A stretch of 64,000 bases of DNA from a virus. Lineage: Duplodnaviria; Heunggongvirae; Uroviricota; Caudoviricetes. A program made the translations under genes and the position numbers. The notes beneath the pieces were generated by a model. That model worked only from the letters and a program-made list of their open reading frames with translations. It made no database searches and had not been told where the DNA came from. The DNA lies in the IMG/VR virus record IMGVR_UViG_3300021255_004328. One strand, 5' to 3'. This document shows positions 8,274-59,572 of this stretch, piece after piece. The stretch's first letter is position 1. The number at the start of each line of letters is the position of its first letter.

Positions 8274-8310
8274 ATAATAATATAAAGCTACGGATGCAAA
8301 AGTTCATTTT
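8274..8310 (-). promoter_or_regulatory. Family-A sigma70-like promoter: -35 ATGAAC, 17-bp spacer, -10 TATATT
   Basis: The minus-strand sequence is AAAATGAACTTTTGCATCCGTAGCTTTATATTATTATTTG. It is one of 9 near-identical copies. Confidence 0.6.
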
Positions 8311-8671
8311 CTGTAAGAAGTTTATGAAGTTTGCAGTAATTATCAAACTCTTCTTTTGTCATTGAAGTTAATTCTGCAGTCAAATTTTGCATATCTTTGT
8401 CGCAGTACTGCTTGGCGCAGGCAAAGCCTAAGTCAAAACCCTTATCAAAAACAGCGATGTATTCAATCTTTTTGTCCTTTGGCAGGTCAGAGTCTTCAAT
8501 TCTTTTATGAAATTCAGCTCTGTCCCTTTCAGCCAAAGAAGCATAATACTGCCCTGTTTTATGTTCGAGTTTTGACTGTTCTACGCTGTCGGACTGCTTG
8601 TCATCATCAACATAATATCTTTGTTTTTTCTCGTGATCCCAAGCAGCCCTTCGTCCGTTATTCGCTGGCAT
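8288..8671 (-). CDS. hypothetical protein
   Basis: ORF with a TAG stop inside the promoter A motif. Confidence 0.55.
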   Translation of the reverse strand: MPANNGRRAAWDHEKKQRYYVDDDKQSDSVEQSKLEHKTGQYYASLAERDRAEFHKRIEDSDLPKDKKIEYIAVFDKGFDLGFACAKQYCDKDMQNLTAELTSMTKEEFDNYCKLHKLLTENELLHP

Positions 8672-9354
8672 TAGCTTACGCTCCTACAAATAGAAATCTC
8701 ACTCTTGCCTTTGACTGTGTGGTCTTCGTACTTGTCATCGCCCTTATAAGGCTCAAGTGATGCTTCTGCAACATAGTTGTATTTGATAAGAAGGTGCTTA
8801 AACCAGTTTGATGTTGTTGATGGAATAAGCTGTCCTGCAACCTTAAACCAATAAGGCCAATCAGTTCCTTTGATTACCAAAGGCTGCTGCTCTTTCTTTA
8901 CAGCTTCGTGCAGTTCTTTGAGTTTGTCGAGGTCTGTGTAATGGTAAACATCATCAGGCATACGACATTCAATAACAGGAATTTTCAAGCCCAAGCTTGT
9001 AAGCATATTGTAAGCAACATAAGCTTTTTCTTTATCAAGAAAGTCATCAACCCGTGTAAGTTTGTACTTTTCGATAGTGTCTTCCCTAAGCGCAAAATCA
9101 CGGATGCGATGGTCGTGTTCATACACTGTTCTGCCTTTTACTTTCTTTTCAGTTATTACATCAAGACTGTAATAACGAAAATTGATATTATGACAATTCT
9201 GAACACCAAAGCCGTTATTTTCTACATATCTGATTGCATCCGAATAGTGGTCCATATCCCACTGTTTTACGATAGCATCTTCATTGTTGAGTCCGCTGCT
9301 GCCAAAACCTGCCTGTCTGATAAGTGCAACATATTTCTTTTCTTTCTTAAACAT
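8671..9354 (-). CDS. hypothetical protein, 227 aa
   Basis: ORF with no recognisable motif. Confidence 0.55.
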   Translation of the reverse strand: MFKKEKKYVALIRQAGFGSSGLNNEDAIVKQWDMDHYSDAIRYVENNGFGVQNCHNINFRYYSLDVITEKKVKGRTVYEHDHRIRDFALREDTIEKYKLTRVDDFLDKEKAYVAYNMLTSLGLKIPVIECRMPDDVYHYTDLDKLKELHEAVKKEQQPLVIKGTDWPYWFKVAGQLIPSTTSNWFKHLLIKYNYVAEASLEPYKGDDKYEDHTVKGKSEISICRSVS

Positions 9355-9389
9355 TTAAAATCTCCTTGGGAGCCAAAGCTCCCAATTGT

Positions 9390-10697
9390 TTATTTGTTAG
9401 CTGCCATTCTCCAAGCAATTTCGCCATTAAGGCGGCTGATTGCTGCAGGATTGCGGCACATATTCTTCCCAGGTGCATCACTGAGTTTAGCAACATCCAA
9501 ACCATTTACGATTGCAACTTTACATACGATGTTAAGAGCATCGATACCCTGAGGTCCAGACCAATCAGTTCCGATACCGAATGCAACCTTTGCCTTACCC
9601 TTGAAGTACTTATTGATTTCAGTTGCCTTCTGAAGATTGAGACCGTCACTGAACATCAAAGTTTTTGTCATAGGGTCAATTCCCAAGCTCTTGTAGTGAG
9701 CAATCATCTTTTCGCCCCAAGCGTAAGGGTCACCTGAGTCGTGGCGAACACCGCTGAACAAAGTTGCAAATGTTTTTTGGAAGTCTTTCAAGAAAACATC
9801 TGTTCCGATTGTATCAGTAAGGGCGATACCATTCATTGTTCCGTATTCTTTAACCCAAGCATCAAGGGCAAACCAGTTGCTGTAAGCAGGGTTGTGGTAA
9901 AGGTGTCCCTGGCCGACTGTCATAATGAACTCGTGAGCCATTGTGCCGACCGCAGTAATGCCATACTTCTTTGCAAGATACATATTTGATGTACCGATGA
10001 AGCCCTGAATTGGACCGATTGCATTCTTCTTTTTCTCTTCAACAAGGCGGCCAATCAACCAATCCTGAAGTTCGAAAGATACACGGCGACGAGCACCAAA
10101 CTCAGAGAAAATCCCTGGTGCATAAATGCCTTCGCGCATAAAGCGAAGCTTCTCTTCAGTCTTTTCCTTGAAGTCTTTTGCAAGCTTTTCGTAATCGTAG
10201 TGATTGCGGTAATAAGTTTCTGCGGCAATTTCAAGAATTGGGATTTCATAGAAAGAAACTTTCCACTGAACGCCTTTTGTATGGATTGCAAGGCCTGTAA
10301 CTGGGTCATCTTCAACAGTGATTTCTTCAATGTGAGGACGCCAATCGCGGATTGTTTCAATGTAGTTGTGATGAATCCAAGGACGCTTTTCAGAGTCACA
10401 AAGCCAAGAAAGTTCATCTTCATCATAGCGGAGGGCGCAGAATGCTTTCAACTGATTGACAATCTCTTCGCGGTCTGCGGCTGTATATTTTTCGTGAGTT
10501 GTGCCTTCACCAACATTGCGGGCTTTGAAATCCCAAGTTGCGTGGTCGCTGCTGAACTGATGCAAATAACACTGACGCATACTGTCTTTGTACTGGTCTG
10601 TGTCAAGCAAGCTTTTACACATAGGCGGGTACTTAAGTCCGAATGCTTTTACAACTTCTGCTTCATCTGCAGTAAGTTTTCCGTTAATTTTCCACAT
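9390..10697 (-). CDS. pncB: nicotinate phosphoribosyltransferase, PncB-type NAPRTase
   Basis: SLLDTDQYK at the N-terminus, FSEFGARRRVS and GTMAHEF match the PncB signatures LLDTDxYK, DFGTRRR and GTxAHE. The NAMPT alternative was considered and judged less likely. Confidence 0.65.
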   Translation of the reverse strand: MWKINGKLTADEAEVVKAFGLKYPPMCKSLLDTDQYKDSMRQCYLHQFSSDHATWDFKARNVGEGTTHEKYTAADREEIVNQLKAFCALRYDEDELSWLCDSEKRPWIHHNYIETIRDWRPHIEEITVEDDPVTGLAIHTKGVQWKVSFYEIPILEIAAETYYRNHYDYEKLAKDFKEKTEEKLRFMREGIYAPGIFSEFGARRRVSFELQDWLIGRLVEEKKKNAIGPIQGFIGTSNMYLAKKYGITAVGTMAHEFIMTVGQGHLYHNPAYSNWFALDAWVKEYGTMNGIALTDTIGTDVFLKDFQKTFATLFSGVRHDSGDPYAWGEKMIAHYKSLGIDPMTKTLMFSDGLNLQKATEINKYFKGKAKVAFGIGTDWSGPQGIDALNIVCKVAIVNGLDVAKLSDAPGKNMCRNPAAISRLNGEIAWRMAANK

Positions 10698-10717
10698 ATA
10701 TGTGATACCTCCAATTA

Positions 10718-11311
10718 TTATTCTTTTTCTTTATTGTCGATATATTCAACCCAGCCAAGTTTCTTGTTTGGGTTATTTGTCCTTACAACAACGCAGTCAC
10801 GAGTAAACATTCTTTTCTTGTTTATTGTTATTTCAGAAATGATAGATTTAACCTTTGTGACGCGTCCTTCCCAAACAACAACATCACCGATTTCAACTTC
10901 AGTTCCGTATGCGTCTTTTGGAAGCTTTGTAATTTTGCGAGGAGCCATCTTTTTGTACTCAATCCCGTAGTCGAGAGGATTTAAGGCATCAAGAAGGTTT
11001 CTTACAAAGAATTCATCATCAGGTGCCATTATGCTGATGCACTCAATATCACCTTTCTGATAAAAAGGAAGCTTGCTTTCAAAGTCCCAATTGGATAAAT
11101 CAGAACTTTTACCTACGAGGCCTTCACCTTCAAAGTGTGTAGTAAATTCCTTAAGGTTGTGAAAAAACTTGTCTCTTTTGTCGTAATCATAGCCACCGCC
11201 TTCACGAAACTCGTATAAAAGTACATACAAGTTTATAAAGTCGGTGCTTCTGCCATTTTCTGTTGCCTTTGTTTTAAAGGCATCTCTTACATCGTTTTCT
11301 ATGTATTCCAT
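10718..11311 (-). CDS. hypothetical protein
   Basis: ORF downstream of promoter A copy 2. Confidence 0.55.
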   Translation of the reverse strand: MEYIENDVRDAFKTKATENGRSTDFINLYVLLYEFREGGGYDYDKRDKFFHNLKEFTTHFEGEGLVGKSSDLSNWDFESKLPFYQKGDIECISIMAPDDEFFVRNLLDALNPLDYGIEYKKMAPRKITKLPKDAYGTEVEIGDVVVWEGRVTKVKSIISEITINKKRMFTRDCVVVRTNNPNKKLGWVEYIDNKEKE

Positions 11312-11316
11312 TTGTT

Positions 11317-11351
11317 TATAATATAAAAGAGTTTTGATTAAAGTTTATTTG
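11317..11351 (-). promoter_or_regulatory. Family-A promoter, variant -35 ATAAAC
   Basis: The minus-strand sequence is CAAATAAACTTTAATCAAAACTCTTTTATATTATAAA. Confidence 0.5.
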
Positions 11352-12420
11352 TATCGTAAAAATTACAGTTTCCGTGAAAAATACTTTTGAATTCAGCTTC
11401 ACGGTCAAGTTCATCACAATGAGTAACTTCTACTGTAAATCTTTTAATATGATGCATTGCGACTTCTTTTTCACATCTTTGTTTCAAATCTGCCAAATCA
11501 AGATAATCATAGAAGAAGTCGTGTTGCCATTCGTTATATTGATTAACTTCTGTTGACTTATTAAGGTCACAGTCAAGTTTATGTCCAACAAAAGTATCAG
11601 AGCCGTGACGAGTAATATAAGGTCGTGTTACGAAATGAACATTTGCATCTTTCAAATCAATGTATGATGGCAATCCTGTGTTTGAAGGTGTTGCTTCTTT
11701 ATCATCAAAACCTTTATCACCTAAAAGAAGACCTTGTCCATTTTCAATAATAAAGTGTTGTGATTGAAGTTTTGAAGCCAAGTTTAAGAATGACGGGCTA
11801 ACTTTGCAACATTCAAACATTGACATAGAGTCTCTTATGAAATGCTCAATAAGAAAGTCAGAATACCAAGGCGTTCGATATTTTGGGTTGATTTTAATCT
11901 TTCTTACGCCTTCATAATAATCGCGGATCTTTTTAAGAAACTCAACTTGTTCATCGTGAGGACGAGCTGCAAAACTATCAAAGTCCATATACACACCATT
12001 ACGATAACGAAGTACAGTTTCCCAAATGCCCATACCGCAAGAGCCTGTCCACTTTTCTTTTTGCAACATTTGATTTGCCATTATGTCCCAAGGAGTAACC
12101 CACTTACAAGATGCAGAACGACAAGCTATAGGCTCAATACCGTAAACTTTTTTAATTTCTTCTTTTTCATTATTGAACTGAATAGGGTCAAGAATAAAGT
12201 CTGGGCTGAAAAATGTTCGAACACCTAAAGGAGTTGCAGAATTGAAGTGTTTGAAAATATGCTGCTTTCCGTCGTATATTACAGAGTGTCCTCTTTGAGC
12301 GCCGCCATTGCCCATAATAACAAAAGTTTGTCTTGGGTCATACTGCTTTGCAATACGAGCAACTGTGAGGCCTTTTCCTTCATCTCCGTAATTTGCGCCA
12401 ATTACAACATCAATACTCAT
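11338..12420 (-). CDS. adenylosuccinate synthetase family protein, short archaeal/PurZ-like form of 360 aa
   Basis: GANYGDEGKGLTV is the P-loop GDEGKGK motif. GHSV matches the conserved GHT(V/L). It is about 70 aa shorter than bacterial PurA. Confidence 0.75.
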   Translation of the reverse strand: MSIDVVIGANYGDEGKGLTVARIAKQYDPRQTFVIMGNGGAQRGHSVIYDGKQHIFKHFNSATPLGVRTFFSPDFILDPIQFNNEKEEIKKVYGIEPIACRSASCKWVTPWDIMANQMLQKEKWTGSCGMGIWETVLRYRNGVYMDFDSFAARPHDEQVEFLKKIRDYYEGVRKIKINPKYRTPWYSDFLIEHFIRDSMSMFECCKVSPSFLNLASKLQSQHFIIENGQGLLLGDKGFDDKEATPSNTGLPSYIDLKDANVHFVTRPYITRHGSDTFVGHKLDCDLNKSTEVNQYNEWQHDFFYDYLDLADLKQRCEKEVAMHHIKRFTVEVTHCDELDREAEFKSIFHGNCNFYDTNKL

Positions 12421-12423
12421 TTT

Positions 12424-12723
12424 CTACCAACTTAAATATTTGTCATCATCAAGAGTTTCGTAAACTTTCCAAAAAGTGTTTTTATGTACGGGATAAATTG
12501 AGCCATCAACACCTTGAACAATAAAGTCACCTTTCTTAAAGCCAATACCCTGACCGTTTGGTAAAATCATTACATAACCATCTTCTGCAATGTCAGCTTT
12601 TTTAACCCTTACATCATCGCGGCTATGTTTTCTTTCATTGATAAATTTTTGAACTTCATCAATGTTGCCATCAAACTCGAGTGCTTCAACCATTACAGGC
12701 TTTTTAATATACTTTTTTACCAT
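12424..12723 (-). CDS. small conserved protein, paralogue of 30821..31099
   Basis: It shares KKPV..A..W.G.N.DEV..F...GDF...GV...Y with the 30821 ORF. It directly abuts the purA-like start. Confidence 0.55.
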   Translation of the reverse strand: MVKKYIKKPVMVEALEFDGNIDEVQKFINERKHSRDDVRVKKADIAEDGYVMILPNGQGIGFKKGDFIVQGVDGSIYPVHKNTFWKVYETLDDDKYLSW

Positions 12724-13109
12724 TCAAGCTCCTTAGGACTGCTGTTTTCAAACGGGTCAACATATTCAATTTCGTCCTCGTGGGCATCTTCATAAAGTTT
12801 GTAAAAAGATGGGTAATCTGTAAAGCAAATATCTTCTGCACTTTCTGCATCGGATTCTTCTTTAACTAACAAAAAGTCTTTATAAAAACTTTGATAATAA
12901 TTACGGCTACCTGGGCCCACCCAAGCATCTCGATAAATATGCCACGTAGCGCCGTCAGAAGTAAGAGTAACACCTACTGACCATTCTGGGCCAAGGAACT
13001 CTTTAATAAGCTTGCAAGTATATTCTTCATTTTCACGAGCTTCTTTAGCATCAACAAAGAATGCACGAACATAATTAGGCTTATGTTTATAAAGAGTTCC
13101 TTTTATCAT
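12717..13109 (-). CDS. hypothetical protein, ends in ...LEW
   Basis: ORF whose stop overlaps the next start. Confidence 0.5.
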   Translation of the reverse strand: MIKGTLYKHKPNYVRAFFVDAKEARENEEYTCKLIKEFLGPEWSVGVTLTSDGATWHIYRDAWVGPGSRNYYQSFYKDFLLVKEESDAESAEDICFTDYPSFYKLYEDAHEDEIEYVDPFENSSPKELEW

Positions 13110-14030
13110 TTACCACTCCAAGCCTTCGCCATTGTCTTTCTTTTCTGCAGGAGCTGCAACATCTTCAGCAAGTCTTTCACGCTTCTTGTATGATTTTTCA
13201 ATACATTTAACGATGCTTCTCTGAAGTCTGTTTACTGAAGACACAATATAATTGTCCTCGCCGATAACATCTTTGAATGACTTATCAACGCTTTCTTCGT
13301 AAGAGCCTCTATCGCTGTTGTAGTTTGTTCTGTCATCTTGGACAGTAATGTGATAAATGTCAAACTTCTTTGAAGCTGCTTCATAAAGTTTGTCTGTTTT
13401 TACTTCAGTCTGTTCTTCAAGTCCGACGCCCAAGAAGTGTTCAACATCTCTTCTGTTCAATGCAGGATTGAGCGGCTCATCACCCATTGTAATAATAATG
13501 CCTTTTCTTCCCTGCTTGTCGTAACAATCCAATCTTGTATGGTAAAGACCAAAATACCAAGGAGCTGTATATGACTCATAAGAATTACCCCCACCGCCTT
13601 TTTCAAGGTAAATTTCCTGCATCTGTTTTGCAACACGAACATCAGACTCAAACTGAGAAACCTGAAGTGGCGCATCATCACATTCAAGATCTCCTACGCC
13701 CATTACACAAACTTCAACGTCCTTAAACTGTTCGTAAAGCTCTTTCATCAAGTTTGCAATAGATGCAGCGCATTCATCACAAGCTGAACCCATTGAACCA
13801 GTAACATCAAGAGCAAGAATTACAGGCACTGTGTTAGGGTGTTCCTCTGTATTGCAGCATTCACGAACTCTGCTTTTTGGGTCAAGCTCACTGTGTAAAG
13901 AAGTCTGTGAGTATTTCATATTGTTGAGACGAACTGTTTTTACGCCATCAACCACGCTGTTAGTCATTACAGCGCCAACTGACTTTGCATAGCTGCTAAA
14001 AGAATCTGCACTGTAGCATCCGCCACCCAT
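13110..14030 (-). CDS. von Willebrand factor A (vWA) domain protein with MIDAS motif
   Basis: ILALDVTGSMG is the DxSxS MIDAS motif. The likely start is the ATG at 14030, with GGAGG 6 nt upstream. The ORF track's TTG start at 14042 is less likely. Confidence 0.6.
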   Translation of the reverse strand: MGGGCYSADSFSSYAKSVGAVMTNSVVDGVKTVRLNNMKYSQTSLHSELDPKSRVRECCNTEEHPNTVPVILALDVTGSMGSACDECAASIANLMKELYEQFKDVEVCVMGVGDLECDDAPLQVSQFESDVRVAKQMQEIYLEKGGGGNSYESYTAPWYFGLYHTRLDCYDKQGRKGIIITMGDEPLNPALNRRDVEHFLGVGLEEQTEVKTDKLYEAASKKFDIYHITVQDDRTNYNSDRGSYEESVDKSFKDVIGEDNYIVSSVNRLQRSIVKCIEKSYKKRERLAEDVAAPAEKKDNGEGLEW

Positions 14031-14043
14031 ATTAACCTCCAAT

Positions 14044-14090
14044 ATGTTAAAATAACATTAACAATGTTAATGTGACACTGTTAATGTTAT
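14044..14090 (-). promoter_or_regulatory. operator-like site: a 19-bp perfect palindrome ACATTAACAaTGTTAATGT (14055-14073) plus a third TGTTAATGT copy (14079-14087)
   Basis: Seen directly in the sequence, between the 343-aa ORF and the vWA gene. Confidence 0.5.
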
Positions 14091-14097
14091 TGTGATT

Positions 14098-15129
14098 TTA
14101 TTTTGCTGTGCCTTTCTCTTCGTCTTCGATAGCAGCAAGTTCAGCCTTAAGGCGGGCTTTCTTTGCTTCAAGAGTTTCGTCACCGTTTACATCAACGTCT
14201 GGGATTTCAAGGTCGAACATACCTGAGAAGTCAAACAAGTCGTTGTCTCCACCAAGTCCGCCACCGAAAAGAGCCATCAAAGCCAAACCGTTAAGTCCGC
14301 CGTTGCCCTCGCCATCTCCGTTGCCACCGAAGTTGAAGCCTTTACCAGAGAGTGCATTCATCAAAGCCATCTTTCCGAGAAGCTTACCAAACTTGTCAGT
14401 TCCTTTTGAACCTGCAAGGTCTCCGATTGGGATAAGAGAGTGGATCTTGTTGTAGAAGAACATCTTTCCAAGGAAGAAATGACGCTCAGGCACGATTGTC
14501 TGAATTTCATTTGTTCTGTAGTCCATAACCTTGATTGTCTTACCGTCTTCGAGAGCAGTAACACATTTTGGTGCAACTCCCTGAGGAGCATCTGGGTCGT
14601 CAAGAACAATGATGTCGCCAACCTTTACTTTTGCAGTTGGTACACAAATAAACAAATCCTGTCCAATATCGAAACAGAAATCCTGAACATTTACAAGCTG
14701 CTTTGTTTTCGCATTGTAAGTTTTATAGCCGGAGCCACTTTTTACAGCAAGTTCACCGTTAAGACCAATTCTTACCATCCCAGGCTTAATTGGCTTAAGG
14801 AACTTTCCAAACATTCCATTTACATCCATAGGAACCTCCATATTATTTTCTTCGACAACTTCCTCGTCGTCGCTTTCTTCTTCATAAGTTTCGTCATCTT
14901 CAGTATTATCAAAATAAGGCTGAAGTGTATCGAACAACTCACCTTCACAAAGTTCAAGACTTCCCTTCAAAAATGTTATATGGTATATCATTTGCCCAAA
15001 AGGCTGCTCACGATACATTCCCATACAACTCCAAGAGTTTGTTGGCTGCTCACACCTTATCTCCATTACGGGTCCCATATTAGGGAAAGCTTTTGGGATT
15101 GTGTCTTGAAGTAACTTAAAATCCAACAT
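14098..15129 (-). CDS. hypothetical protein with an acidic patch and a Gly-rich C-terminus
   Basis: ORF with the segment GNGDGEGNGGLNGL; it is the partner of the vWA gene. Confidence 0.55.
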   Translation of the reverse strand: MLDFKLLQDTIPKAFPNMGPVMEIRCEQPTNSWSCMGMYREQPFGQMIYHITFLKGSLELCEGELFDTLQPYFDNTEDDETYEEESDDEEVVEENNMEVPMDVNGMFGKFLKPIKPGMVRIGLNGELAVKSGSGYKTYNAKTKQLVNVQDFCFDIGQDLFICVPTAKVKVGDIIVLDDPDAPQGVAPKCVTALEDGKTIKVMDYRTNEIQTIVPERHFFLGKMFFYNKIHSLIPIGDLAGSKGTDKFGKLLGKMALMNALSGKGFNFGGNGDGEGNGGLNGLALMALFGGGLGGDNDLFDFSGMFDLEIPDVDVNGDETLEAKKARLKAELAAIEDEEKGTAK

Positions 15130-15138
15130 AAAATTATA

Positions 15139-15942
15139 TTAACATTTTGCTACCCTATCGAAAGCATCAGGTATAAATTCTTCAAGAGCAGAAGGCATTT
15201 CAATAAGTTTGTATTTTGTGTTAGGATTGTGATGCATAGTAACAATCTTTCTGAAAAGTTCTTCAGACTTTGGAGGGAGACCTGTTAAAATAAATGTATC
15301 AAGTGTTTCATAGTCGAAGCCCATATTGTCTTCGTCACTCTTTCCACACATACCGTCTGAAGGCGTTTTGTGAACAAGGTCAGTCGGCAGCTTCATATAA
15401 TCGCCAAGGGCAACAACTTCAGTTTTTGTAAGTCGATTGAGAAGAGAGAAGTCACCTGCAGCATCGCCGTATTTTGTACTGTAACCTACATAGTCTTCAG
15501 ACTTGTTACAAGTGTTGCAAACAAAACCACCGTAAAGAGCAGCTATGCTGTAAAGAGTAACCATACGAAGGCGGGCAGGAGTGTTTGTTGTGTAGAGCTT
15601 TGGTATTTCATCACCTTCATACCAATCGCCAATTCTTGATGTAAGGTCGTTGTACATACCTTTTATGTTGATTTCAACGCTGCGAAGGCCGAGAATATCA
15701 ATAACTTTTTTGCTGTCGGAGATGTCTGCCTGTTCTCCGTTCGGCATCATAACACCAATTACCTTTTCAGGACCAAGAGCTTCAGCGAGAAGAGCAGCAC
15801 AGATTGTTGAGTCTTTTCCGCCACTGATACCAATTACTGCAGGGCCTTTCTTATCTTTGAAAAAGTTTTTAATCCAAACGATAATCTTATCGTGAATGTC
15901 CTTCATTCTTTCTTCAGTTGTAAAAGTATCAAAGCTAGTCAT
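15139..15942 (-). CDS. nadE: NH3-dependent NAD+ synthetase NadE
   Basis: VIGISGGKDSTICAALL is the SGGxDS PP-loop motif. The 267-aa length and overall NadE pattern fit. Confidence 0.75.
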   Translation of the reverse strand: MTSFDTFTTEERMKDIHDKIIVWIKNFFKDKKGPAVIGISGGKDSTICAALLAEALGPEKVIGVMMPNGEQADISDSKKVIDILGLRSVEINIKGMYNDLTSRIGDWYEGDEIPKLYTTNTPARLRMVTLYSIAALYGGFVCNTCNKSEDYVGYSTKYGDAAGDFSLLNRLTKTEVVALGDYMKLPTDLVHKTPSDGMCGKSDEDNMGFDYETLDTFILTGLPPKSEELFRKIVTMHHNPNTKYKLIEMPSALEEFIPDAFDRVAKC

Positions 15943-16041
15943 TTTTCTTCTCCTGTCGCTTTTTCCTCAAGTTGTCGATTACATTTGTTATTTTAAGGTA
16001 AATCAATACAAGAGATACCTTGATAAACTTTAAGAAGTTTT

Positions 16042-16485
16042 TCAATCCCAATCCTCCACGTGTTTGAACCCATAACAGTGTTCGCCGTCATTAGGCCAAT
16101 TATCTTCAGTCTTTTCACAGCCCGTCATAACATAATCGCTATGTTCACCTTCACGGTAGTAATAAGACTGTTTATAACGTACTTGTTTCTTTCCGTTGTA
16201 TTTGCAGTTTTCACAACAAGGTTTTCCAAACTCTTCAATAGGTTTTTCTTCAACCTCTTTAAGATCTTCTTCAAGGCGTTTTACAAAGCTTTCTTCTCCG
16301 TCGTCACCTGAAAAAAGATAATCAACTCGATGCAAACAAACCTGTGCTTTGCGAATTGTTTTAAGGCATTCACGAAGAGCTTTCTGAGTTGTCTCATTAT
16401 AAGCTCCTCCTTGCCATCTCAATTCATTTTCGAGTTGCTCAAGATTCATTGAAAGATTGTTGTTATAAAAATGTCCGCCACTCAT
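16042..16485 (-). CDS. hypothetical Cys-rich protein
   Basis: ORF; the internal ATG at 16485 avoids overlap with the upstream gene. Confidence 0.45.
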   Translation of the reverse strand: MSGGHFYNNNLSMNLEQLENELRWQGGAYNETTQKALRECLKTIRKAQVCLHRVDYLFSGDDGEESFVKRLEEDLKEVEEKPIEEFGKPCCENCKYNGKKQVRYKQSYYYREGEHSDYVMTGCEKTEDNWPNDGEHCYGFKHVEDWD

Positions 16486-18849: not shown

Positions 18850-19320
18850 TTAGTCCTCCCTGATTACGTGGAAACCGTAAACGTATTTGATTTGGCCATC
18901 ATATCCTGAGAGGCCTACAGCGCCGTCGTAGTCGTAAACAAAGTCTGCCATTTTGTCGAAGTCAAGAGCTTCACGAGGATAGCCGTTTTCAAAGTAGCAG
19001 TAGTCGTTTTCGAGTGTATCAAGAATCTCTTCGTCAGAAAGATCTCCGAAAGTATCAGGATCTTCAATGCGGAAGTCGTTTACCCAAACTTCATCGTAGA
19101 ACTCAGAAATTCCGCCCCACTTTTTTACCCAATCAGAATTGGCTTCGTCAGATGACTCTTCGAAGATTTCTCTTGCGCGTTCTTTTGCGTCAGCTTCAAG
19201 CTCGTCATCATCACGAATTGAATAAACTTCATCGTTTACTGTAAAACGTGGTGGGTTGAACGATTCATCAAGTTCAACATTTGGTCCATATTCTTTTCTG
19301 ATAGCTTCAAGTTTATCCAT
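18850..19320 (-). CDS. strongly acidic protein; candidate DNA-mimic anti-restriction protein
   Basis: About 30% Asp/Glu. It is driven by promoter A copy 3. Confidence 0.5.
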   Translation of the reverse strand: MDKLEAIRKEYGPNVELDESFNPPRFTVNDEVYSIRDDDELEADAKERAREIFEESSDEANSDWVKKWGGISEFYDEVWVNDFRIEDPDTFGDLSDEEILDTLENDYCYFENGYPREALDFDKMADFVYDYDGAVGLSGYDGQIKYVYGFHVIRED

Positions 19321-19343
19321 TTTGTCCTCCTTTTGGAATTACA

Positions 19344-19382
19344 AATATAATATAAAGAAGCCGCACAAAAAGTTTAATTTTT
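19344..19382 (-). promoter_or_regulatory. Family-A promoter: TTAAAC, 17 bp, TATATT
   Basis: The minus-strand sequence is AAAATTAAACTTTTTGTGCGGCTTCTTTATATTATATTTGT. Confidence 0.6.
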
Positions 19383-23479: not shown

Positions 23480-23488
23480 TCCTCCTTA

Positions 23489-23529
23489 CAATAATAATAT
23501 AAAGAGGTATGGAAGAAAGTTTAATTTTT
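23489..23529 (-). promoter_or_regulatory. Family-A promoter
   Basis: The minus-strand sequence is AAAATTAAACTTTCTTCCATACCTCTTTATATTATTATTGT. Confidence 0.6.
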
Positions 23530-24012: not shown

Positions 24013-24026
24013 AAAAATATATTAAC

Positions 24027-26474: not shown

Positions 26475-26481
26475 TTTCTAT

Positions 26482-29216: not shown

Positions 29217-29237
29217 AGTATCCTCCTTAAACTGACA

Positions 29238-29275
29238 AATATAATATAAAGAGGATACTTTGAAAGTTTAATTTT
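29238..29275 (-). promoter_or_regulatory. Family-A promoter
   Basis: The minus-strand sequence is AAAATTAAACTTTCAAAGTATCCTCTTTATATTATATTT. Confidence 0.6.
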
Positions 29276-34687: not shown

Positions 34688-34700
34688 AATATCCTCCTTT

Positions 34701-34740
34701 TAATAATAATATAAAAGTCAACTTACTGAAGTTTAAATTT
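34701..34740 (-). promoter_or_regulatory. Family-A promoter
   Basis: The minus-strand sequence is AAATTTAAACTTCAGTAAGTTGACTTTTATATTATTATTA. Confidence 0.55.
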
Positions 34741-35341: not shown

Positions 35342-35352
35342 TCCTCCTTACA

Positions 35353-35390
35353 GATATAATATAAAGAAGTTGACTGTAAAGTTTAATTTT
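35353..35390 (-). promoter_or_regulatory. Family-A promoter
   Basis: The minus-strand sequence is AAAATTAAACTTTACAGTCAACTTCTTTATATTATATCTG. Confidence 0.6.
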
Positions 35391-41377: not shown

Positions 41378-41388
41378 ATAAATTTAGT

Positions 41389-44083: not shown

Positions 44084-44124
44084 TTGAATTACCTCCGTTT
44101 CATCAGATTTCCTCCCAGTTATCC

Positions 44125-44164
44125 AATAATAATATAAAAAGAAGTTCTGAGAAGTTTAATTTAT
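44125..44164 (-). promoter_or_regulatory. Family-A promoter
   Basis: The minus-strand sequence is TAAATTAAACTTCTCAGAACTTCTTTTTATATTATTATTG. Confidence 0.55.
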
Positions 44165-45097: not shown

Positions 45098-45125
45098 AAA
45101 ACCTCCGACATTTATATTATTTAGT

Positions 45126-51032: not shown

Positions 51033-51057
51033 TGACCTCTATAATTTAGTCTTATAT

Positions 51058-52545: not shown

Positions 52546-52581
52546 AATAAAATTAGTTTTATCTAAATGGCAGGAAGATTT

Positions 52582-53476: not shown

Positions 53477-53477
53477 C

Positions 53478-53660: not shown

Positions 53661-53680
53661 TGAGGTGTCCTTCTAAAAAA

Positions 53681-53947
53681 TTAGTAGGAAAACACCTTCT
53701 TATTTTCAACGGTTTTATTAAGCCACTCTTCAAGAAAATCAATTTCAGTAACAAGGAATGATGTGATTGCAACAGGAGAACATTTTTCTGTAAATGAAAC
53801 AATAAGACGGTCAGCGTCAAAAGAGTCTTCACTTATTTCAATCCAACAATCTTCGTCATCATCGCGGTCATAAGACCAACTTTTGATTTTATTTTCAATG
53901 TCTGGATTATAATGAAAGCCTTTTATTTTAAGTTTTGTCAAATCCAT
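53681..53947 (-). CDS. hypothetical protein
   Basis: ORF preceded by GGAGG and the TTAATATT element. Confidence 0.45.
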   Translation of the reverse strand: MDLTKLKIKGFHYNPDIENKIKSWSYDRDDDEDCWIEISEDSFDADRLIVSFTEKCSPVAITSFLVTEIDFLEEWLNKTVENKKVFSY

Positions 53948-53971
53948 AGTGAACCTCCATTTACAATATTA

Positions 53972-53998
53972 ACAAAAACGGCGGACCGAAGCCCGCCT
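53972..53998 (-). terminator. rho-independent terminator GGCGGGCTTCGGTCCGCC followed by a T-run
   Basis: The hairpin and T-tract lie after the stop of the methyltransferase gene. Confidence 0.65.
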
Positions 53999-54002: not shown

Positions 54003-55283
54003 TTATTTCATAAACTTGTTGAACCCGCTTGGGATTGATTTCTTCGGCTTTGTTTTTGCCTCAGAACAGAAGTCTTGGTCAACATTCTGTGTTTCCGCAA
54101 TGTTAAGTTTTCCTTCAAGGAACTTCTTAACTTCATTACAGTAATACTGTGCTGTACATACAGGAACATTCTGACCAATCATACCCATTTTCTGTTTAGG
54201 TACTTCTGGGAAGTCATCAGGTAAAGCCATCAACCTCATACATTCACGGATTGAATAACCACGCTCTTCAACTGGGTGCCAAATACGACCCATAGAACGA
54301 CCATACAAAGAAGGAAGCTTGTGTGTACCAAAGTAAAGTGGAGCGCCTGACATCCAACCTTTGCCCTGAGCTTTCTTTGAGATGAAGTAATCAATATCAT
54401 CTTTGTCTTTCTGTCTGTCAAAGAACTGCTTTGCGTATGCAAGTTCACCGCATTCATCAGCGCAGAAGTCAGCAGCAGCGTTGTGCTTTGCCCATTCTTC
54501 GCGGTATTTATCACCCCACTTGTGCTTAAGATACTTTATCCAACCATCATCGCCTGAGCGAACCTGACAAGCGCCTTGCTGTTTTGGCAAGTCACCAATG
54601 ATGTCCATAATTGCAGGGATAGGAGCAGGTCCATCATATTCAAGATAAGGAGCATTACTGTCCTTTACGCAAATCATAAATGTACGAGTTCTGTTCTGTG
54701 GGAGACCGTGATGCAAAGTATTTACTTTTACAAGGTTGACACCATAGCCTGCTTCATTTGCCATTTTTGTAAGCTTTTCCTTGATACCTGCTCCAAGAGG
54801 AGTTGCAAGTTTGTAAGCATTTTCAAAAATGTAAACTTTAGGCTTCAAGTACTTCAAAACATTTGAAAGCATACCCAACATATTGTTGTTCTGAACTGCA
54901 TCAGAACCACGACCCATTTTTGAGTTGCTGCCTGACTGGGTATTTGCTGAAGAAAGTCCTGCACAGATAGGAACACCTACAACAACATCGAGATCCTTGA
55001 ATTCAGGCATATCCCAATTCCAAACAACTTTTTCATTACCCTCTTCATCAACTTCAGGTTTGAAATCTTCAGCAAGAGAATAAGCTCCACCGTTCAAATA
55101 AAAGTGTTTAAGATTGTTGCCTTTTACCTCGTTCATATAATTGAGATACAGTTCGGAATTTGCAACACCGTCATAGTCAAGAACTGCAGTAGGCGGACAA
55201 CCAAAAGCATTTTCTGCACCGATGGCGCAACCTCCTATCAATGGTTGGTACGCCAACCAACGAATTTCATTTGTTTTACTCAT
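54003..55283 (-). CDS. DNA (cytosine-5)-methyltransferase-fold protein
   Basis: GVPICAGLS is a PCQ-like motif IV. FENAYKL is an ENV-like motif VI. GLPQNRTRTFMI is motif VIII (QxRxR). The start was chosen at 55283. Confidence 0.65.
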   Translation of the reverse strand: MSKTNEIRWLAYQPLIGGCAIGAENAFGCPPTAVLDYDGVANSELYLNYMNEVKGNNLKHFYLNGGAYSLAEDFKPEVDEEGNEKVVWNWDMPEFKDLDVVVGVPICAGLSSANTQSGSNSKMGRGSDAVQNNNMLGMLSNVLKYLKPKVYIFENAYKLATPLGAGIKEKLTKMANEAGYGVNLVKVNTLHHGLPQNRTRTFMICVKDSNAPYLEYDGPAPIPAIMDIIGDLPKQQGACQVRSGDDGWIKYLKHKWGDKYREEWAKHNAAADFCADECGELAYAKQFFDRQKDKDDIDYFISKKAQGKGWMSGAPLYFGTHKLPSLYGRSMGRIWHPVEERGYSIRECMRLMALPDDFPEVPKQKMGMIGQNVPVCTAQYYCNEVKKFLEGKLNIAETQNVDQDFCSEAKTKPKKSIPSGFNKFMK

Positions 55284-56082
55284 ATTTCCAAAAATCTCCA
55301 TTTAAATCACATTTATTATTTTCAATACAACTTTTTATACGTTGTCTTGTAATGCCAGTTAATTTTTCAGCATTTAGCAAACTTGGATATTTAATGTTTT
55401 TTGTTACATTTATAATCACTTTGCCTGTTGAATGCTGCATTCTCAATTTTTGCTTTGTTTCATCTGATACTTTATGTCCTTTTCTCATCAAGGACATCTT
55501 TTTCTTAGTTTCTTCCGAGTGCTTTTTGCCTTTGTTAATATCAGAAAGATGTTGTATAATTTCAGGATGCTTTTTATATGTTTCTTTTAATGATTGACTG
55601 ATTTTATCAGCATACTCTTTTTGATTATATGAGCCATTTACTTTTCGTGTTTGTACACCTTTTAAATAATAATCTTTACTTCTTTTTTGGCTTAATTCTT
55701 TTGAAAGCTTAGACTTTACATCTGACAGCTCTTTTTTAAGTTTTTCATATAATCGAGAATTAACATAATTTTCCAAATCGTCTCTCTGATATTGCATTCT
55801 ATGAAAAGCAAACAACATTTTATAATGTGCATCACCTGAATTATAAATTTTACATAATAAATAATGCGCAAGATAATGTTCTCTTGCAGTAAGTAAAACT
55901 TTATTGTCTGCATCATCTTTCTTTTCTGGAAAGATTGATTTTGGCAATATATGGTGTTCTTCATAATACACATAATTAGGGTCGCTCTTTCGTCTCTTTA
56001 CCCTATTAAGAGATTTAACATAGGAGATATAATCATAATAATTTTTTTCATAGTTCATATTATTTAGTATGAACATCTGCAT
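55276..56082 (-). CDS. HNH homing endonuclease with C-terminal NUMOD3-type DNA-binding repeats
   Basis: EEHHILPKS...N...REHYLAH is the HNH motif. HSEETKKKMS and VSDETKQKL are NUMOD3 repeats. Confidence 0.75.
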   Translation of the reverse strand: MQMFILNNMNYEKNYYDYISYVKSLNRVKRRKSDPNYVYYEEHHILPKSIFPEKKDDADNKVLLTAREHYLAHYLLCKIYNSGDAHYKMLFAFHRMQYQRDDLENYVNSRLYEKLKKELSDVKSKLSKELSQKRSKDYYLKGVQTRKVNGSYNQKEYADKISQSLKETYKKHPEIIQHLSDINKGKKHSEETKKKMSLMRKGHKVSDETKQKLRMQHSTGKVIINVTKNIKYPSLLNAEKLTGITRQRIKSCIENNKCDLNGDFWKYE

Positions 56083-56130
56083 ACCTCCGATAAGTTTCTG
56101 ATATTTAGTTTAAAAACACGAAAATGAGCA

Positions 56131-58936: not shown

Positions 58937-58947
58937 ACTGATTTATA

Positions 58948-59175
58948 TTAACCTTCTTCCCAGGCGCGGTCCTCTGCAGCAGAGTCTGTTCCATAATCAT
59001 AACCAAGCTGAAGAACTTCGTCGTAAATTGTGTAGGCAATATCAACTCTTTTTGTTGGGTCTTTGATTGCTTCCTCAATAAGATTGATTATCCAATCACG
59101 GAACTTAACCTCGCAATCAACTTGCAGGCAACCATATCTTATGTCGTGTGCTGGTGCTTTAGGTAAATCTGCCAT
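58948..59175 (-). CDS. hypothetical protein
   Basis: ORF. Confidence 0.4.
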   Translation of the reverse strand: MADLPKAPAHDIRYGCLQVDCEVKFRDWIINLIEEAIKDPTKRVDIAYTIYDEVLQLGYDYGTDSAAEDRAWEEG

Positions 59176-59176
59176 C

Positions 59177-59506
59177 TTAGTCCACCTTTATGAAGTTTTT
59201 GCAATCCTGATATGAACCTTGATACAGGATGTGAGTTTCACCCATATAAGTTTCATATTCATTTTTGTTCAAAAGGCGAATGCCCATATCAGTTTTGACA
59301 AGGAAATACACTTCGCCTACCTGAAGGTCGTAAAGATCCCAGTCATCGTCAACAAACTTTGCTGCTTTTTCTTCAGTAAGGTCACGCCAAAAACCGCCGT
59401 CACCGTGATCTTCAAAATACTGTAAATTTTTCTTATTTGCCTTCAAAAGGTCAAGACGAGCCTGAAGTTTGTCAAGAATCTTATCAATGTTAGGTGTATT
59501 AGCCAT
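59177..59506 (-). CDS. hypothetical protein
   Basis: ORF downstream of promoter A copy 9. Confidence 0.5.
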   Translation of the reverse strand: MANTPNIDKILDKLQARLDLLKANKKNLQYFEDHGDGGFWRDLTEEKAAKFVDDDWDLYDLQVGEVYFLVKTDMGIRLLNKNEYETYMGETHILYQGSYQDCKNFIKVD

Positions 59507-59532
59507 AATGTTCTCCTTATATTCAATTTACA

Positions 59533-59572
59533 AATATAATATAAAGAAAACAGCTGAAAAGTTTAATTTTTT
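59533..59572 (-). promoter_or_regulatory. Family-A promoter
   Basis: The minus-strand sequence is AAAATTAAACTTTTCAGCTGTTTTCTTTATATTATATTTG. Confidence 0.6.

What the first reader, a model, noticed from the sequence alone, without database searches (positions are those of the whole stretch)
8274..59572. Nine-copy, highly conserved sigma70-like promoter family with extended flanks
Nine intergenic sites carry an almost invariant 40-bp element: AAAA-TTAAAC-TTT-N11-CTT-TATATT-AT(A/T). They are at 8274, 11317, 19344, 23489, 29238, 34701, 35353, 44125 and 59533, all oriented with the minus-strand genes. The element has a -35 TTAAAC, an exact 17-bp spacer and a -10 TATATT. It sits 25-40 nt upstream of a start codon and often overlaps the stop codon of the preceding gene. 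Conservation beyond the hexamers, in the AAAA/TTT flanks and the CTT before the -10, suggests a co-regulated temporal class, probably early, or recognition by a phage factor. Downstream genes include the acidic DNA-mimic candidate and the CCA-adding enzyme.
Basis: seen in the sequence. Interest (0 to 1): 0.6.

Follow-up and report, generated by a model that had tools for sequence, protein, structure and literature searches.

The report
Conserved promoter family of rumen jumbo phage
The nine repeats are real and are almost certainly one class of transcription start signals (promoters) of an uncultivated ~300-kb rumen phage, an ordinary kind of feature whose unusual rigidity, together with a hidden phage sigma factor found nearby, hints at a phage-run gene-timing programme.

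Summary
All nine copies exist, all on the gene (minus) strand, with an exact 17-bp spacer; shuffled sequence gives none.

The window is part of a 301-kb sheep-rumen jumbo-phage scaffold, distantly related to Bacillus phage G. About 20 related contigs carry the same element: 64 unique copies at 46 non-orthologous sites.

Consensus: aaaTTAAACTTt-N9-yTcTTTATATTATwwTT-G(+1)TAA.

- Between orthologous copies the two boxes differ by 1-2%, the spacer and flanks by 18%.
- Copies head protein operons and large tRNA arrays.
- Some abut opposite-strand genes, so the element must itself be the promoter.
- The AAAA flank is not conserved in the wider family.
- In about six sites the -35 hexamer is the loop of a terminator hairpin.

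Two further promoter-like classes share these genomes: TGnTAATAT after terminators, and ACTAAWTW.

Best reading: a bipartite sigma70-type promoter class for pre-replicative genes. Which sigma reads it is unresolved: phage sigma about 0.45-0.5, host primary sigma about 0.35-0.4. "Early" is not shown.

This is a new member of a known kind, of moderate interest.

The parts
8269..8311 (-). Class I promoter P1, spanning -39 to about +4. Variant -35 box ATGAAC, -10 box TATATT. The TAG stop of the upstream gene lies just before the -10 box. Drives gene 7827-8243 (138 aa).
   Evidence: It sits 15 nt from the boundary of the 8.1-kb indel 8262-16401 seen against relatives.
11310..11352 (-). Class I promoter P2. 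Variant -35 box ATAAAC. The ATG of gene 10718-11311 starts 2 nt after the predicted +1, so the transcript is probably leaderless.
19339..19381 (-). Class I promoter P3, a perfect core. The TAA stop of gene 19374-19748 is part of the TTAAAC box. Predicted +1 is G at 19342. Drives the acidic 156-aa protein 18850-19320 and the small ORFs after it.
   Evidence: Orthologous copies in L003, L006 and L014 have different spacers.
23486..23528 (-). Class I promoter P4, a perfect core. Predicted +1 is G at 23489. Drives the CCA-adding/polyA-polymerase-HD enzyme 21989-23473.
   Evidence: The boundary of the 1.9-kb indel 23531-25456 lies 3 nt from its upstream edge.
29233..29275 (-). Class I promoter P5, a perfect core. 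Predicted +1 is G at 29236. Drives 28845-29216 and the operon that contains the AAA ATPase.
   Evidence: An orthologue is present in L002.
34698..34740 (-). Class I promoter P6, with 3 mismatches to the core. Drives 34220-34687.
35348..35390 (-). Class I promoter P7, a perfect core standing free in a 275-nt intergenic region. It lies about 95 nt downstream of terminator 35484-35515, and a palindrome at 35402-35418 lies just upstream. Drives a 95-aa acidic ORF, 35048-35335.
44121..44163 (-). Class I promoter P8, with 3 mismatches to the core. It has a 41-nt leader containing the mini-ORF MKRR* (44089-44103). Drives 43859-44083 and the BspA-type LRR protein 43119-43862.
59528..59570 (-). Class I promoter P9, a perfect core and the highest-scoring copy. 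Predicted +1 is G at 59531. Drives 59177-59506 and the following ORFs.
   Evidence: Orthologues are present in L001, L009, L010 and L011.

Best explanation
The nine elements are one class (class I) of bipartite, sigma70-type promoters of a ~300-kb uncultivated rumen jumbo phage.

Anatomy (shown):
- Upstream box T-T/G-A-A-A-C-T-T at -35 to -28.
- Free 9-bp spacer.
- Downstream box yTcTTTATATTAT at -17 to -5, containing the -10 hexamer TATATT at -12 to -7.
- Conserved purine start, G(+1)TAA.
- A Shine-Dalgarno sequence 8-20 nt further on.

Mechanism (inferred): host core RNA polymerase carrying a sigma70-family subunit binds the two boxes 17 bp apart, melts at the TATATT box and starts at the G.

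Function (shown by position): these promoters re-start transcription inside long co-directional arrays of small ORFs, NAD-salvage and nucleotide/DNA-metabolism genes, and tRNA arrays. They are often packed into the last codons of the preceding gene, and in some relatives into its terminator, with the -35 hexamer as the hairpin loop.

Which sigma (inferred, close call): I judge it slightly more likely (about 0.45-0.5) that the specificity subunit is the phage's own divergent sigma factor ('sig1', encoded ~7 kb beyond the window on the same scaffold). That would make class I a delayed-early/middle class switched on after host-type TGnTAATAT promoters (class II). The alternative, host primary sigma alone, I put at about 0.35-0.4.
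For: That it is a promoter:
- Nine copies against zero expected, all co-oriented with the genes.
- 64 unique copies at 46 non-orthologous sites in 527 kb of relatives plus the window, and four more in the scaffold flanks. The element is never on both strands within one locus.
- Orthologous copies diverge 1.4% in the -35 block, 2.2% in the -10 block and 1.1% at +1..+4, against 18% in the spacer and upstream and 11.5% downstream.
- The spacer has about 0 bits of information, so the likeness is not recent duplication.
- 37 of 46 sites have an SD plus a start codon 10-46 nt after +1.
- Sites also head tRNA arrays of 10-27 genes.
- In divergent junctions (L090, L065, L076) the element lies 25-45 nt from the start of an opposite-strand gene, so it must itself hold the promoter.

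For a phage-specific sigma:
- The -35 box matches TTGACA at only 3 of 6 positions, yet A-31, C-30, T-29 and T-28 are nearly or fully invariant.
- There is no TG extended -10 box; T-14 and T-13 are invariant instead.
- A separate class with a textbook extended -10 box (TGnTAATAT, after terminators) exists in the same genomes. It precedes the tmRNA gene and the sig2 gene. No sigma-like gene is preceded by class I.
- By sequence inspection only (no test run), sig1 has a C-terminal HTH-like segment, which would suit a promoter with a -35 box.
- sig1 homologues and class I were both found only in this lineage, including the 29%-GC relative L106. A more distant relative (L105, which has a sig2 homologue) shows class III but no class I in 20 kb.
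Against: - There are no transcript 5' ends, so promoter activity itself is inferred.
- The geometry (17-bp spacer, A-11, T-7, +1 seven nt downstream, A-rich upstream in many copies) is exactly what host primary sigma uses.
- T4-type early promoters and PeSLs are also over-conserved and have non-consensus -35 boxes (TTTACW).
- The downstream genes (small ORFs, an acidic protein, tRNAs, DNA metabolism) look early.
- Classes I and II could simply be the -35/-10 and TGn/-10 architectures of one host sigma.
- The link between sig1 and class I rests on co-distribution in a handful of loci and on domain logic only.
- sig1 has no Pfam or PDB sequence match, and its model is of moderate confidence from a shallow alignment.
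- The conservation figures are partly inflated. Loci were retrieved with an exact pattern and sites were kept by weight-matrix score.
- Only part of the 301-kb genome was seen.
Confidence: 0.47

Rival explanations
1. Class I elements are early promoters read by unmodified host RNA polymerase with its primary sigma. On this view they are very strong promoters of the T4-early type, and their extra conserved positions optimise competition with host promoters. Classes I and II would be the -35/-10 and TGn/-10 architectures of the same sigma, and the phage sigma-like proteins would serve class III or another class.
For: - Canonical 17-bp spacer, A-11 and T-7, +1 at the canonical distance, and A-rich -36..-38 in about 70% of sites.
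- Downstream genes are typical pre-replicative or host-takeover genes: small ORFs, an acidic 156-aa protein, tRNA arrays, ligase, NAD salvage.
- T4 early promoters show 'additional regions of consensus' (PMC2988021).
- PeSL promoters have -35 boxes such as TTTACW (PMC4122927).
- Phage G-type jumbo phages are reported to lack their own RNAP and sigma (PMC7824862).
Against: - The -35 box matches TTGACA at 3 of 6 positions, yet is invariant at non-consensus bases.
- T-14 and T-13 are invariant where host promoters prefer TG.
- About 40 bits of information is far more than host-sigma families usually carry.
- A distinct, better host-type class exists, and it, not class I, precedes a sigma-like gene.
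- The scaffold does encode a sigma-like protein.
- The host, and therefore its -35 preference, is unknown.
Confidence: 0.37
2. Class I elements are promoters for a phage-encoded non-canonical RNA polymerase, either virion-packaged or early. Models would be the AR9/phiKZ vRNAP, whose early promoter is AAATATATATTAT-N6-G, or the N4 vRNAP, which uses hairpin promoters.
For: - The 8-mer TATATTAT and a conserved G start are shared with AR9 early promoters (PMC5312081) and with MarsHill.
- The contiguous conservation from -17 to +4 resembles single-subunit RNAP promoters.
- Several very large ORFs (1968, 1618 and 1561 aa) have no detectable homologues.
- Some copies carry a hairpin.
Against: - The G lies 4 nt, not 6 nt, after TATATTAT.
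- There is a second invariant box at a fixed 17-bp spacing, which those polymerases do not use.
- No RNAP Pfam domain, DxDGD motif or T7-like A/B/C motif was found in any window or relative protein examined.
- The closest cultured relative belongs to a group without its own RNAP.
- Stable hairpins occur in only about 6 of 46 sites.
Confidence: 0.06
3. The elements are dispersed repeats whose main role is not promoter activity. Candidates are recombination or gene-shuffling sites, operators of a phage DNA-binding protein, or terminators or RNA-processing sites.
For: - Three indel or replacement boundaries between the window and relatives fall within 15 nt of a copy: 8262, 19382/19391 and 23531.
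- About six independent copies form a strong hairpin followed by a T-run (dG -9 to -15).
- The information content exceeds what a promoter needs.
Against: - Orientation is strictly tied to the downstream genes.
- The distance to the SD and start codon, or to the first tRNA, is fixed.
- Only the two boxes and the start site are conserved.
- There are no terminal repeats or target duplications.
- The window copies have no stable structure (dG >= -1.1).
- The boundary coincidence is not significant if boundaries are assumed to be intergenic (about 4.7 expected, 3-4 observed).
- These roles could coexist with promoter function, as they do in T4 PeSLs.
Confidence: 0.07

Closest known systems
T4-type early promoters and PeSLs (promoter-early stem-loop cassettes) of T4-like myoviruses (PMC2839356, PMC4122927, PMC2988021)
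   Same: - Many near-identical copies of a -35/N17/-10 promoter, conserved beyond the hexamers.
- A-rich DNA upstream.
- Placement between small non-essential ORFs.
- A non-consensus -35 box (TTTACW in T4/PST).
- Sometimes fused with a terminator stem-loop, and located near indels between close relatives.
   Different: - The phage lineage is unrelated: a rumen jumbo phage distantly related to phage G.
- There is no TGn element.
- The -35 box is TTAAAC.
- The stem-loop is present in only about 6 of 46 sites and in none of the nine window copies. Where it exists, the -35 hexamer is the loop rather than lying downstream of the stem-loop.
- A role in recombination was not demonstrated here.
- The reading sigma may be phage-encoded.
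Phage-sigma-dependent promoter classes, such as Bacillus phage SPO1 middle promoters (gp28: AGGAGA-N17-TTTNTTT) and late promoters (gp33/34: CGTTAGA-N18-GATATT).
   Same: - Bipartite with a 17-18-bp spacer.
- Nearly invariant boxes that differ from the host consensus.
- One temporal class among several.
- The phage encodes divergent sigma proteins.
   Different: - The box sequences are different.
- The sigma-promoter pairing is experimentally proven for SPO1 and only inferred here.
- The -10 box here still fits the primary-sigma pattern (A-11, T-7).
AR9/phiKZ-type virion-RNAP early promoters (AAATATATATTAT-N6-G; PMC5312081)
   Same: - The 8-mer TATATTAT is shared.
- A conserved G start.
- A very rigid consensus in a jumbo phage.
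   Different: - Spacing to the G is 4 nt, not 6 nt.
- AR9 promoters have no second upstream box.
- No split beta/beta' polymerase genes were found here.
ECF (group 4) sigma promoters, such as sigmaW TGAAAC-N16-CGTA and sigmaE GGAACTT-N16-TCTGA.
   Same: - The upstream box has an invariant AAC followed by T-rich bases (T[T/G]AAACTT).
- Spacing is 16-17 bp.
- The structural neighbours of sig1 and sig2 include many ECF sigmas.
   Different: The -10 box is TATATT, not the CGT type.

Membership tests
sigma70-type bipartite bacterial promoter | Two conserved blocks separated by a 17 +/- 1 bp spacer | tested here: met
   The spacer is exactly 17 bp in all 9 window copies and in all 46 independent sites.
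sigma70-type bipartite bacterial promoter | A -10 hexamer with A at -11 and T at -7 (TATAAT-like) | tested here: met
   TATATT is invariant, matching 5 of 6 consensus positions.
sigma70-type bipartite bacterial promoter | A -35 hexamer resembling TTGACA | tested here: inconclusive
   TTAAAC matches at 3 of 6 positions. The invariant bases A-31, C-30, T-29 and T-28 are not the consensus ones. The generic consensus scan of the window was not informative.
sigma70-type bipartite bacterial promoter | Transcription starts 6-8 nt downstream of the -10 box | not testable with these tools
   Indirect evidence only: G is conserved (39 of 46 sites) exactly 7 nt after TATATT.
sigma70-type bipartite bacterial promoter | Located upstream of, and co-oriented with, transcription units | tested here: met
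   Every copy is co-oriented with its downstream unit: protein operons (SD plus start codon in 37 of 46 sites), tRNA arrays, and divergent junctions.
PeSL composite promoter/terminator cassettes (T4-like phages) | A stable terminator stem-loop forms part of the repeated unit | tested here: not met
   The window copies fold at dG >= -1.1. Only about 6 of 46 independent sites in relatives have a strong hairpin plus T-run, and there the -35 hexamer is the loop.
PeSL composite promoter/terminator cassettes (T4-like phages) | Copies mark indel or replacement boundaries between close relatives (modular shuffling) | tested here: inconclusive
   Three boundaries fall within 15 nt of a copy. That is no more than expected if boundaries are confined to intergenic DNA.
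PeSL composite promoter/terminator cassettes (T4-like phages) | Near-consensus host sigma70 early promoter in a T4-like genome | tested here: not met
   This is not a T4-like phage. The nearest cultured relative is phage G, at 42% amino-acid identity in the helicase. The -35 box is non-consensus.
AR9/phiKZ vRNAP early promoters | A single AT-rich block, AAATATATATTAT-N6-G, with no -35 box | tested here: not met
   TATATTAT is shared, but the G lies 4 nt downstream and a second invariant box is present.
AR9/phiKZ vRNAP early promoters | The phage encodes split multisubunit RNAPs | tested here: not met
   No RNAP domains or DxDGD motifs were found in the window, its flanks or the related loci. 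Only part of the genome was seen.
T4 middle (MotA-box) promoters | A TGCTT box centred at -30, 12 +/- 1 bp from the -10 box, with MotA/AsiA proteins | tested here: not met
   The box sequence differs. It spans -35..-27 and lies 14 bp from the -10 hexamer. No MotA or AsiA Pfam hit was found in the proteins scanned.
ECF sigma promoters | An AAC core in the -35 box and a CGT-type -10 box | tested here: inconclusive
   The AAC core is invariant, but the -10 box is TATATT.
sigma70-family protein (for the candidate reader sig1) | The sigma domain 2 fold, plus a domain 4 HTH | tested here: inconclusive
   [not shown]

The most novel reading that the evidence does not exclude
A phage-G-related jumbo phage lineage, from a group reported to have neither its own RNAP nor sigma factors, runs a three-tier transcription programme with its own cryptic, Pfam-invisible sigma factors.

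The proposed tiers:
- Host sigma reads the TGnTAATAT (often leaderless) class II promoters.
- Phage sigma sig1 reads the rigid class I promoters studied here.
- A second sigma-like protein reads the short ACTAAWTW class III promoters.

The class I -35 box would be co-opted as the loop of upstream terminators to pack terminator and promoter into about 45 bp.
Probability: 0.3. Interest if true: 0.6.

Novelty: new member of a known kind. Interest (0 to 1): 0.4.

Why it matters
On its own this is an ordinary feature: large lytic phages commonly have families of near-identical promoters that define temporal classes.

Its value is practical and local.
- It gives a ready operon map and three candidate temporal classes for an uncultivated ~300-kb rumen phage whose proteins are mostly without homologues.
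- It pairs a very rigid promoter with a cryptic sigma-like protein. That pairing can be tested in vitro without culturing the phage or its host.
- It suggests that 'sigma-less' jumbo phage groups may hide divergent sigma factors.
- If the pairing holds, class I plus sig1 would be a compact orthogonal promoter/sigma pair.

Tried and rejected
- **Mis-spaced collection scans.** Two scans used the wrong spacing (N15 instead of N13). They gave only chance hits or none. Loci L017-L052 are irrelevant.
- **Generic promoter/terminator scan**. Hit counts were barely above shuffles, so it was uninformative.
- **Deposited phages.** Megablast of 12 kb against deposited phages found no match. A blastn of the consensus element against 50,697 phage records gave only single chance hits, including one in phage G, so no deposited phage shares the family.
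- **One bacterial hit.** The match in Clostridium nigeriense (L016) lacks the downstream block and an SD. I treat it as chance.
- **Hairpin explanation of the AAAA/TTT flanks.** Rejected for the window copies (dG about 0). It holds only for a subset of copies in relatives.
- **Recombination hot-spot idea.** The boundary coincidences are not significant against an intergenic null.
- **Search for sigma or RNAP by Pfam and PHROGs.** I scanned about 80 window proteins (PHROGs on ten large ones only), and by Pfam 88 mid-size and 19 large protein clusters from relatives. Nothing was found.
- **Regex for RNAP catalytic motifs.** Nothing found.
- **hhalign of sig1 against sig2.** No similarity.
- **Rfam on the window.** No known RNA family.
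- **tRNA scan of the window.** None found.
- **Search for more distant sig1-encoding loci in IMG/VR.** Only the same lineage came back.

Full report
**1. Observation.**
The pattern AAAATTAAACTTT-N11-CTTTATATTAT, allowing up to 3 mismatches, occurs nine times in the window. All copies are on the minus strand and none appears in 100 shuffles. The bare TTAAAC-N17-TATATT pattern gives 9 matches against 0.96 expected. A weight matrix trained on the nine copies finds nothing between 36 bits (the weakest true copy) and 12 bits, so the family is discrete.

Conservation also continues downstream, as TATATTAT-WW-TTGTAA. The upstream gene's stop codon lies inside the element in 8 of 9 copies. In five of them it is the TAA of TTAAAC. 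The predicted start, a G seven nt after TATATT, lies 2-41 nt before the start codon. P2 is effectively leaderless.

**2. What the window is.**
Nearly all ORFs are on the minus strand. Pfam identifies:
- an NAD-salvage set: NAPRTase, NAD synthase, isochorismatase, two cytidylyltransferase-like proteins and a NUDIX protein;
- an adenylosuccinate-synthetase-like protein;
- a CCA-adding/polyA-polymerase enzyme with an HD domain;
- an AAA ATPase, a GGDEF protein, ThyX and an SPFH/flotillin protein;
- a DEAD_2-type helicase, BspA-type LRR proteins, DNA methylases and a NUMOD3 endonuclease.

Most proteins, including ORFs of 1968, 957, 935 and 690 aa, have no informative Pfam hit (the 935-aa ORF only a weak LRR match), and the ten large ORFs also scanned against PHROGs have none.

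The best cultured relative is Bacillus phage G, at 42% amino-acid identity in the helicase. No deposited phage is similar at the DNA level.

Proteins identical to window proteins are found on a 301,281-bp scaffold, ENA ERZ28612978, SHIW14-1_SAMN02144230 scaffold_10. Its flanks add DnaB, an NAD-dependent ligase and a beta-CASP nuclease on the same strand. The record names point to a sheep-rumen sample; that reading is my inference.

**3. Comparative evidence.**
Exact-pattern scans of IMG/VR returned 11 loci and then, with the correct spacing, 55 loci from about 20 contigs. These share 65-97% nucleotide identity with the window wherever they are homologous. A 306-kb contig binned in a 'Ca. Fimenecus' MAG carries four exact copies spread over 175 kb.

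Scanning 527 kb of these relatives plus the window gave 91 hits, 64 unique, at 46 non-orthologous sites. The element was never on both strands within one locus. Four more copies lie in the scaffold flanks.

The consensus is aaaTTAAACTTt (-38..-27), N9, yTcTTTATATTAT (-17..-5), wwTT, G(+1)TAA. The spacer carries about 0 bits of information.

Divergence between orthologous copies (13 groups, 23 pairs):

| Region | Divergence |
|---|---|
| -35 block | 1.4% |
| -10 block | 2.2% |
| +1..+4 | 1.1% |
| Spacer | 18.3% |
| Upstream | 18.6% |
| Downstream | 11.5% |

One caveat applies. Retrieval by exact pattern and selection by weight-matrix score inflate the apparent invariance. The nine window copies, which were found independently, show the same pattern.

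**4. Why it is a promoter.**
- 37 of 46 sites have an SD plus a start codon 10-46 nt after the predicted +1.
- Several sites without an ORF head arrays of 10-27 tRNA genes. The signal therefore acts on transcription, not translation.
- In relatives, many copies lie at divergent junctions. In L090, L065 and L076 the upstream edge of the element is only 25-45 nt from the start codon of an opposite-strand gene, so no other promoter can fit.
- The geometry is the canonical one for sigma70-family holoenzymes: box, 17 bp, TATATT with A-11 and T-7, then 6 nt, then a purine start.

**5. The flanks.**

AAAA and TTT(T) are complementary. In the window copies, however, the resulting hairpin has dG between 0 and -1.1. 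In about six independent sites in relatives the stem is extended by G-C pairs (dG -9 to -15) and is followed by a T-run: L012 4867, L054 8912, L060 1644, L005 10561/L103 17010, L095 8012 and L096 6660. In those sites the -35 hexamer is the loop of an intrinsic terminator, and the T-tract runs into the -10 box. This is an optional overlay, not a defining feature of the family.

**6. Other promoter-like classes in the same genomes.**

*Class II.* A terminator hairpin, then TTTT, then TTGTTAATAT, which reads as TGnTAATAT, a textbook extended -10 box.
- It occurs four times on the gene strand of the window, each time directly before a start codon.
- The start codon is often only 6-8 nt away, which suggests leaderless mRNAs.
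- It recurs in relatives, before the tmRNA gene, and nine times in 20 kb of the 29%-GC relative L106.

*Class III.* ACTAAWTW, with the full form AACTAATTATTTT.
- It occurs 13 times on the gene strand against 3 on the other strand. Eleven of the 13 are intergenic, and ten of those lie 11-57 nt before start codons.
- The genes it precedes include the large orphan ORFs of 957, 690, 1968 and 495 aa.
- It also stands in tandem before the only plus-strand gene (5417-5737), before opposite-strand operons in relatives, and in the distant relative L105.

Class I is therefore one of at least three signal types, which supports the idea that it is a co-regulated class.

**7. Who reads it.**
No sigma70 or RNAP Pfam domain was found in the window proteins, the scaffold flanks, or the 88 mid-size and 19 large protein clusters from relatives. 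There are no DxDGD or T7-like motifs either.

Two proteins looked sigma-like by eye, so I tested them by structure.

*sig1* (365-368 aa) is encoded at L081 2182-3288 and at L104 2050-3159. The second location is on the window's own scaffold, about 7 kb beyond the right end of the window.
- It has only close homologues, no Pfam domain and no PDB sequence hit.
- Its AF2 model has mean pLDDT 72.

The promoters in front of these genes are informative.
- The sig2 gene is preceded by a terminator plus class II motif, 6 nt before its ATG.
- The sig1 gene is preceded by a class III motif in both L104 and L106. Its operon starts behind a class II(-like) element.
- No sigma-like gene follows a class I promoter.

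The distributions also line up. sig1 homologues were found only in the lineage that has class I. L106 has both sig1 and class I. L105, a 264-kb contig with a sig2 homologue at 43% identity, has class III but no class I in 20 kb.

**8. Interpretation.**
Shown: the elements form a discrete, selectively maintained, gene-oriented bipartite signal placed where promoters must be.

Inferred: transcription starts at the G, by bacterial core RNAP with a sigma70-family subunit.

The identity of that sigma is open.
- For a phage sigma: the invariant non-consensus bases (AAAC-TT, T-14, T-13), the very high information content, the presence of a distinct and better host-type class, and a phage sigma with an HTH-like C-terminus.
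- For host primary sigma: the canonical geometry, the A-rich upstream region, the early-looking cargo, and the T4 precedent for over-conserved early promoters with odd -35 boxes.

My estimates are about 0.45-0.5 for a phage sigma and about 0.35-0.4 for host sigma. I put about 0.06 on a non-canonical phage polymerase. That is the AR9-like reading: TATATTAT is shared, but the spacing to the G is 4 nt against 6 nt, and class I has an extra box. I put about 0.07 on a repeat with no promoter role.

**9. Comparison with known systems.**
The closest known analogues are T4-type early promoters and PeSL cassettes. Both are many near-identical -35/N17/-10 promoters lying between accessory ORFs, and both are sometimes fused to terminators and found near indels.

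Membership in that family fails on three counts: the phage lineage is different, the stem-loop is absent from most copies, and there is no demonstrated link to recombination. Three boundaries lie within 15 nt of a copy, but that is not significant against an intergenic null.

The element works like the promoter classes of phage sigma cascades such as SPO1. Its upstream box resembles ECF -35 boxes (AAC followed by T-rich bases); that comparison is from my own knowledge and was not checked here.

No deposited phage, phage G included, carries the motif in multiple copies.

**10. Verdict.**
The feature is real and statistically overwhelming, but of an ordinary kind: a new member of the class 'phage promoter families'.

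The added findings raise its interest modestly and make the mechanism testable without a cultured host. They are the three signal classes, the terminator-loop packing, the cryptic sigma-like proteins in a jumbo-phage group reported to lack them, and possible spirochaete host genes (FlaB and FlaA in relatives).

Noticed in passing
window 1040-1049, 31117-31126, 43029-43038, 53966-53975 (minus strand); L009 7444; L092 ~7000; L106 (9 copies): A second promoter-like class. It consists of a G+C-rich terminator hairpin, then TTTT, then TTGTTAATAT, which reads as TGnTAATAT, a textbook extended -10 box. It often stands only 6-8 nt before the ATG, so the mRNAs may be leaderless. It also precedes the tmRNA gene and the sigma-like gene sig2.
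   Followed up: partly
window minus strand 848-855, 2354-2361, 5329-5336, 26479-26486, 37657-37664, 41381-41388, 45118-45125, 51043-51050, 52550-52557, 53678-53685, 56102-56109; plus strand 5384-5401: A third promoter-like class, ACTAAWTW (full form AACTAATTATTTT). Ten of the eleven intergenic copies lie 11-57 nt before start codons (one lies 143 nt upstream). The genes include the large orphan ORFs (957, 690, 1968, 495 aa), the GGDEF gene, the HNH gene and the sig1 gene. Copies also stand in tandem before the only plus-strand gene (5417-5737). The motif is conserved in a distant relative (L105) that lacks class I in the 20 kb seen.
   Followed up: partly
[not shown]
   Followed up: yes
L012 4867, L054 8912, L060 1644, L005 10561, L103 17010, L095 8012, L096 6660: In these class I copies the -35 hexamer is the 6-nt loop of a strong hairpin (dG -9 to -15), which is followed by a T-run. 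Terminator and promoter therefore overlap within about 45 bp. The stems differ in sequence between sites, which is compensatory variation.
   Followed up: yes
L074 7980-8837; L007 3112-3924: Relatives encode a flagellin with both Pfam flagellin domains, which looks like spirochaete FlaB by my recollection of that sequence. They also encode a protein matching FlaA, the spirochaete flagellar sheath protein (E 2e-9). This hints at a Treponema-like host, which conflicts with the 'Ca. Fimenecus' MAG bin of contig JAZNWZ010000130.1.
   Followed up: no
L095, L075, L061, L067, L056, L086, L091, L062; L009 7042-7423 and L011 9972-10352: The lineage carries very large tRNA arrays, up to 27 genes in 10 kb. 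It also carries a tmRNA gene (Rfam 88 bits) with the unusual tag ATKRSVFARKSNSVFARIAA.
   Followed up: partly
window 8262-16401: An 8.1-kb block is absent from relatives L006 and L069. It holds NAPRTase, an adenylosuccinate-synthetase-like gene, NAD synthase and promoters P1 and P2. Its low-coordinate boundary is 15 nt from P1. Together with NMNAT-like, NUDIX and isochorismatase genes nearby, it makes a near-complete NAD-salvage set.
   Followed up: partly
window 55273-56103: The NUMOD3 (HNH-type) endonuclease gene 55276-56082, which abuts the C5 DNA methylase gene, is an 830-bp insertion relative to L009 and L011. This is typical of a homing endonuclease.
   Followed up: no
window 44089-44103 (minus strand): The 41-nt leader after promoter P8 contains a four-codon mini-ORF (MKRR*) with its own GGGAGG. 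Its stop codon overlaps the SD of the next gene, so it may be a leader peptide or a translational-coupling device.
   Followed up: no
window 35402-35418 (minus strand): A perfect palindrome, TTGACA-TTTTT-TGTCAA, lies 12 nt upstream of P7. A TTGACATTTTT motif also lies upstream of the ligase-gene class I copies (L005 10561, L013 7324). It may be an operator or an upstream host-type -35 box.
   Followed up: no
window 45126-51032, 2415-5288, 37671-40478, 35535-37607: These are very large ORFs of 1968, 957, 935 and 690 aa. They have no Pfam or PHROG hits, apart from a weak BspA-LRR match in the 935-aa protein. The 1968-, 957- and 690-aa ORFs are preceded by the class III motif; the 935-aa ORF is not, and may be co-transcribed with the 299-aa gene upstream of it, which has one. 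They may be virion or injected proteins.
   Followed up: no
window 25455-26474, 31173-32810: The phage encodes a GGDEF diguanylate cyclase with an N-terminal membrane-like region, and a 545-aa SPFH/flotillin protein. Both are unusual accessory genes for a phage.
   Followed up: no
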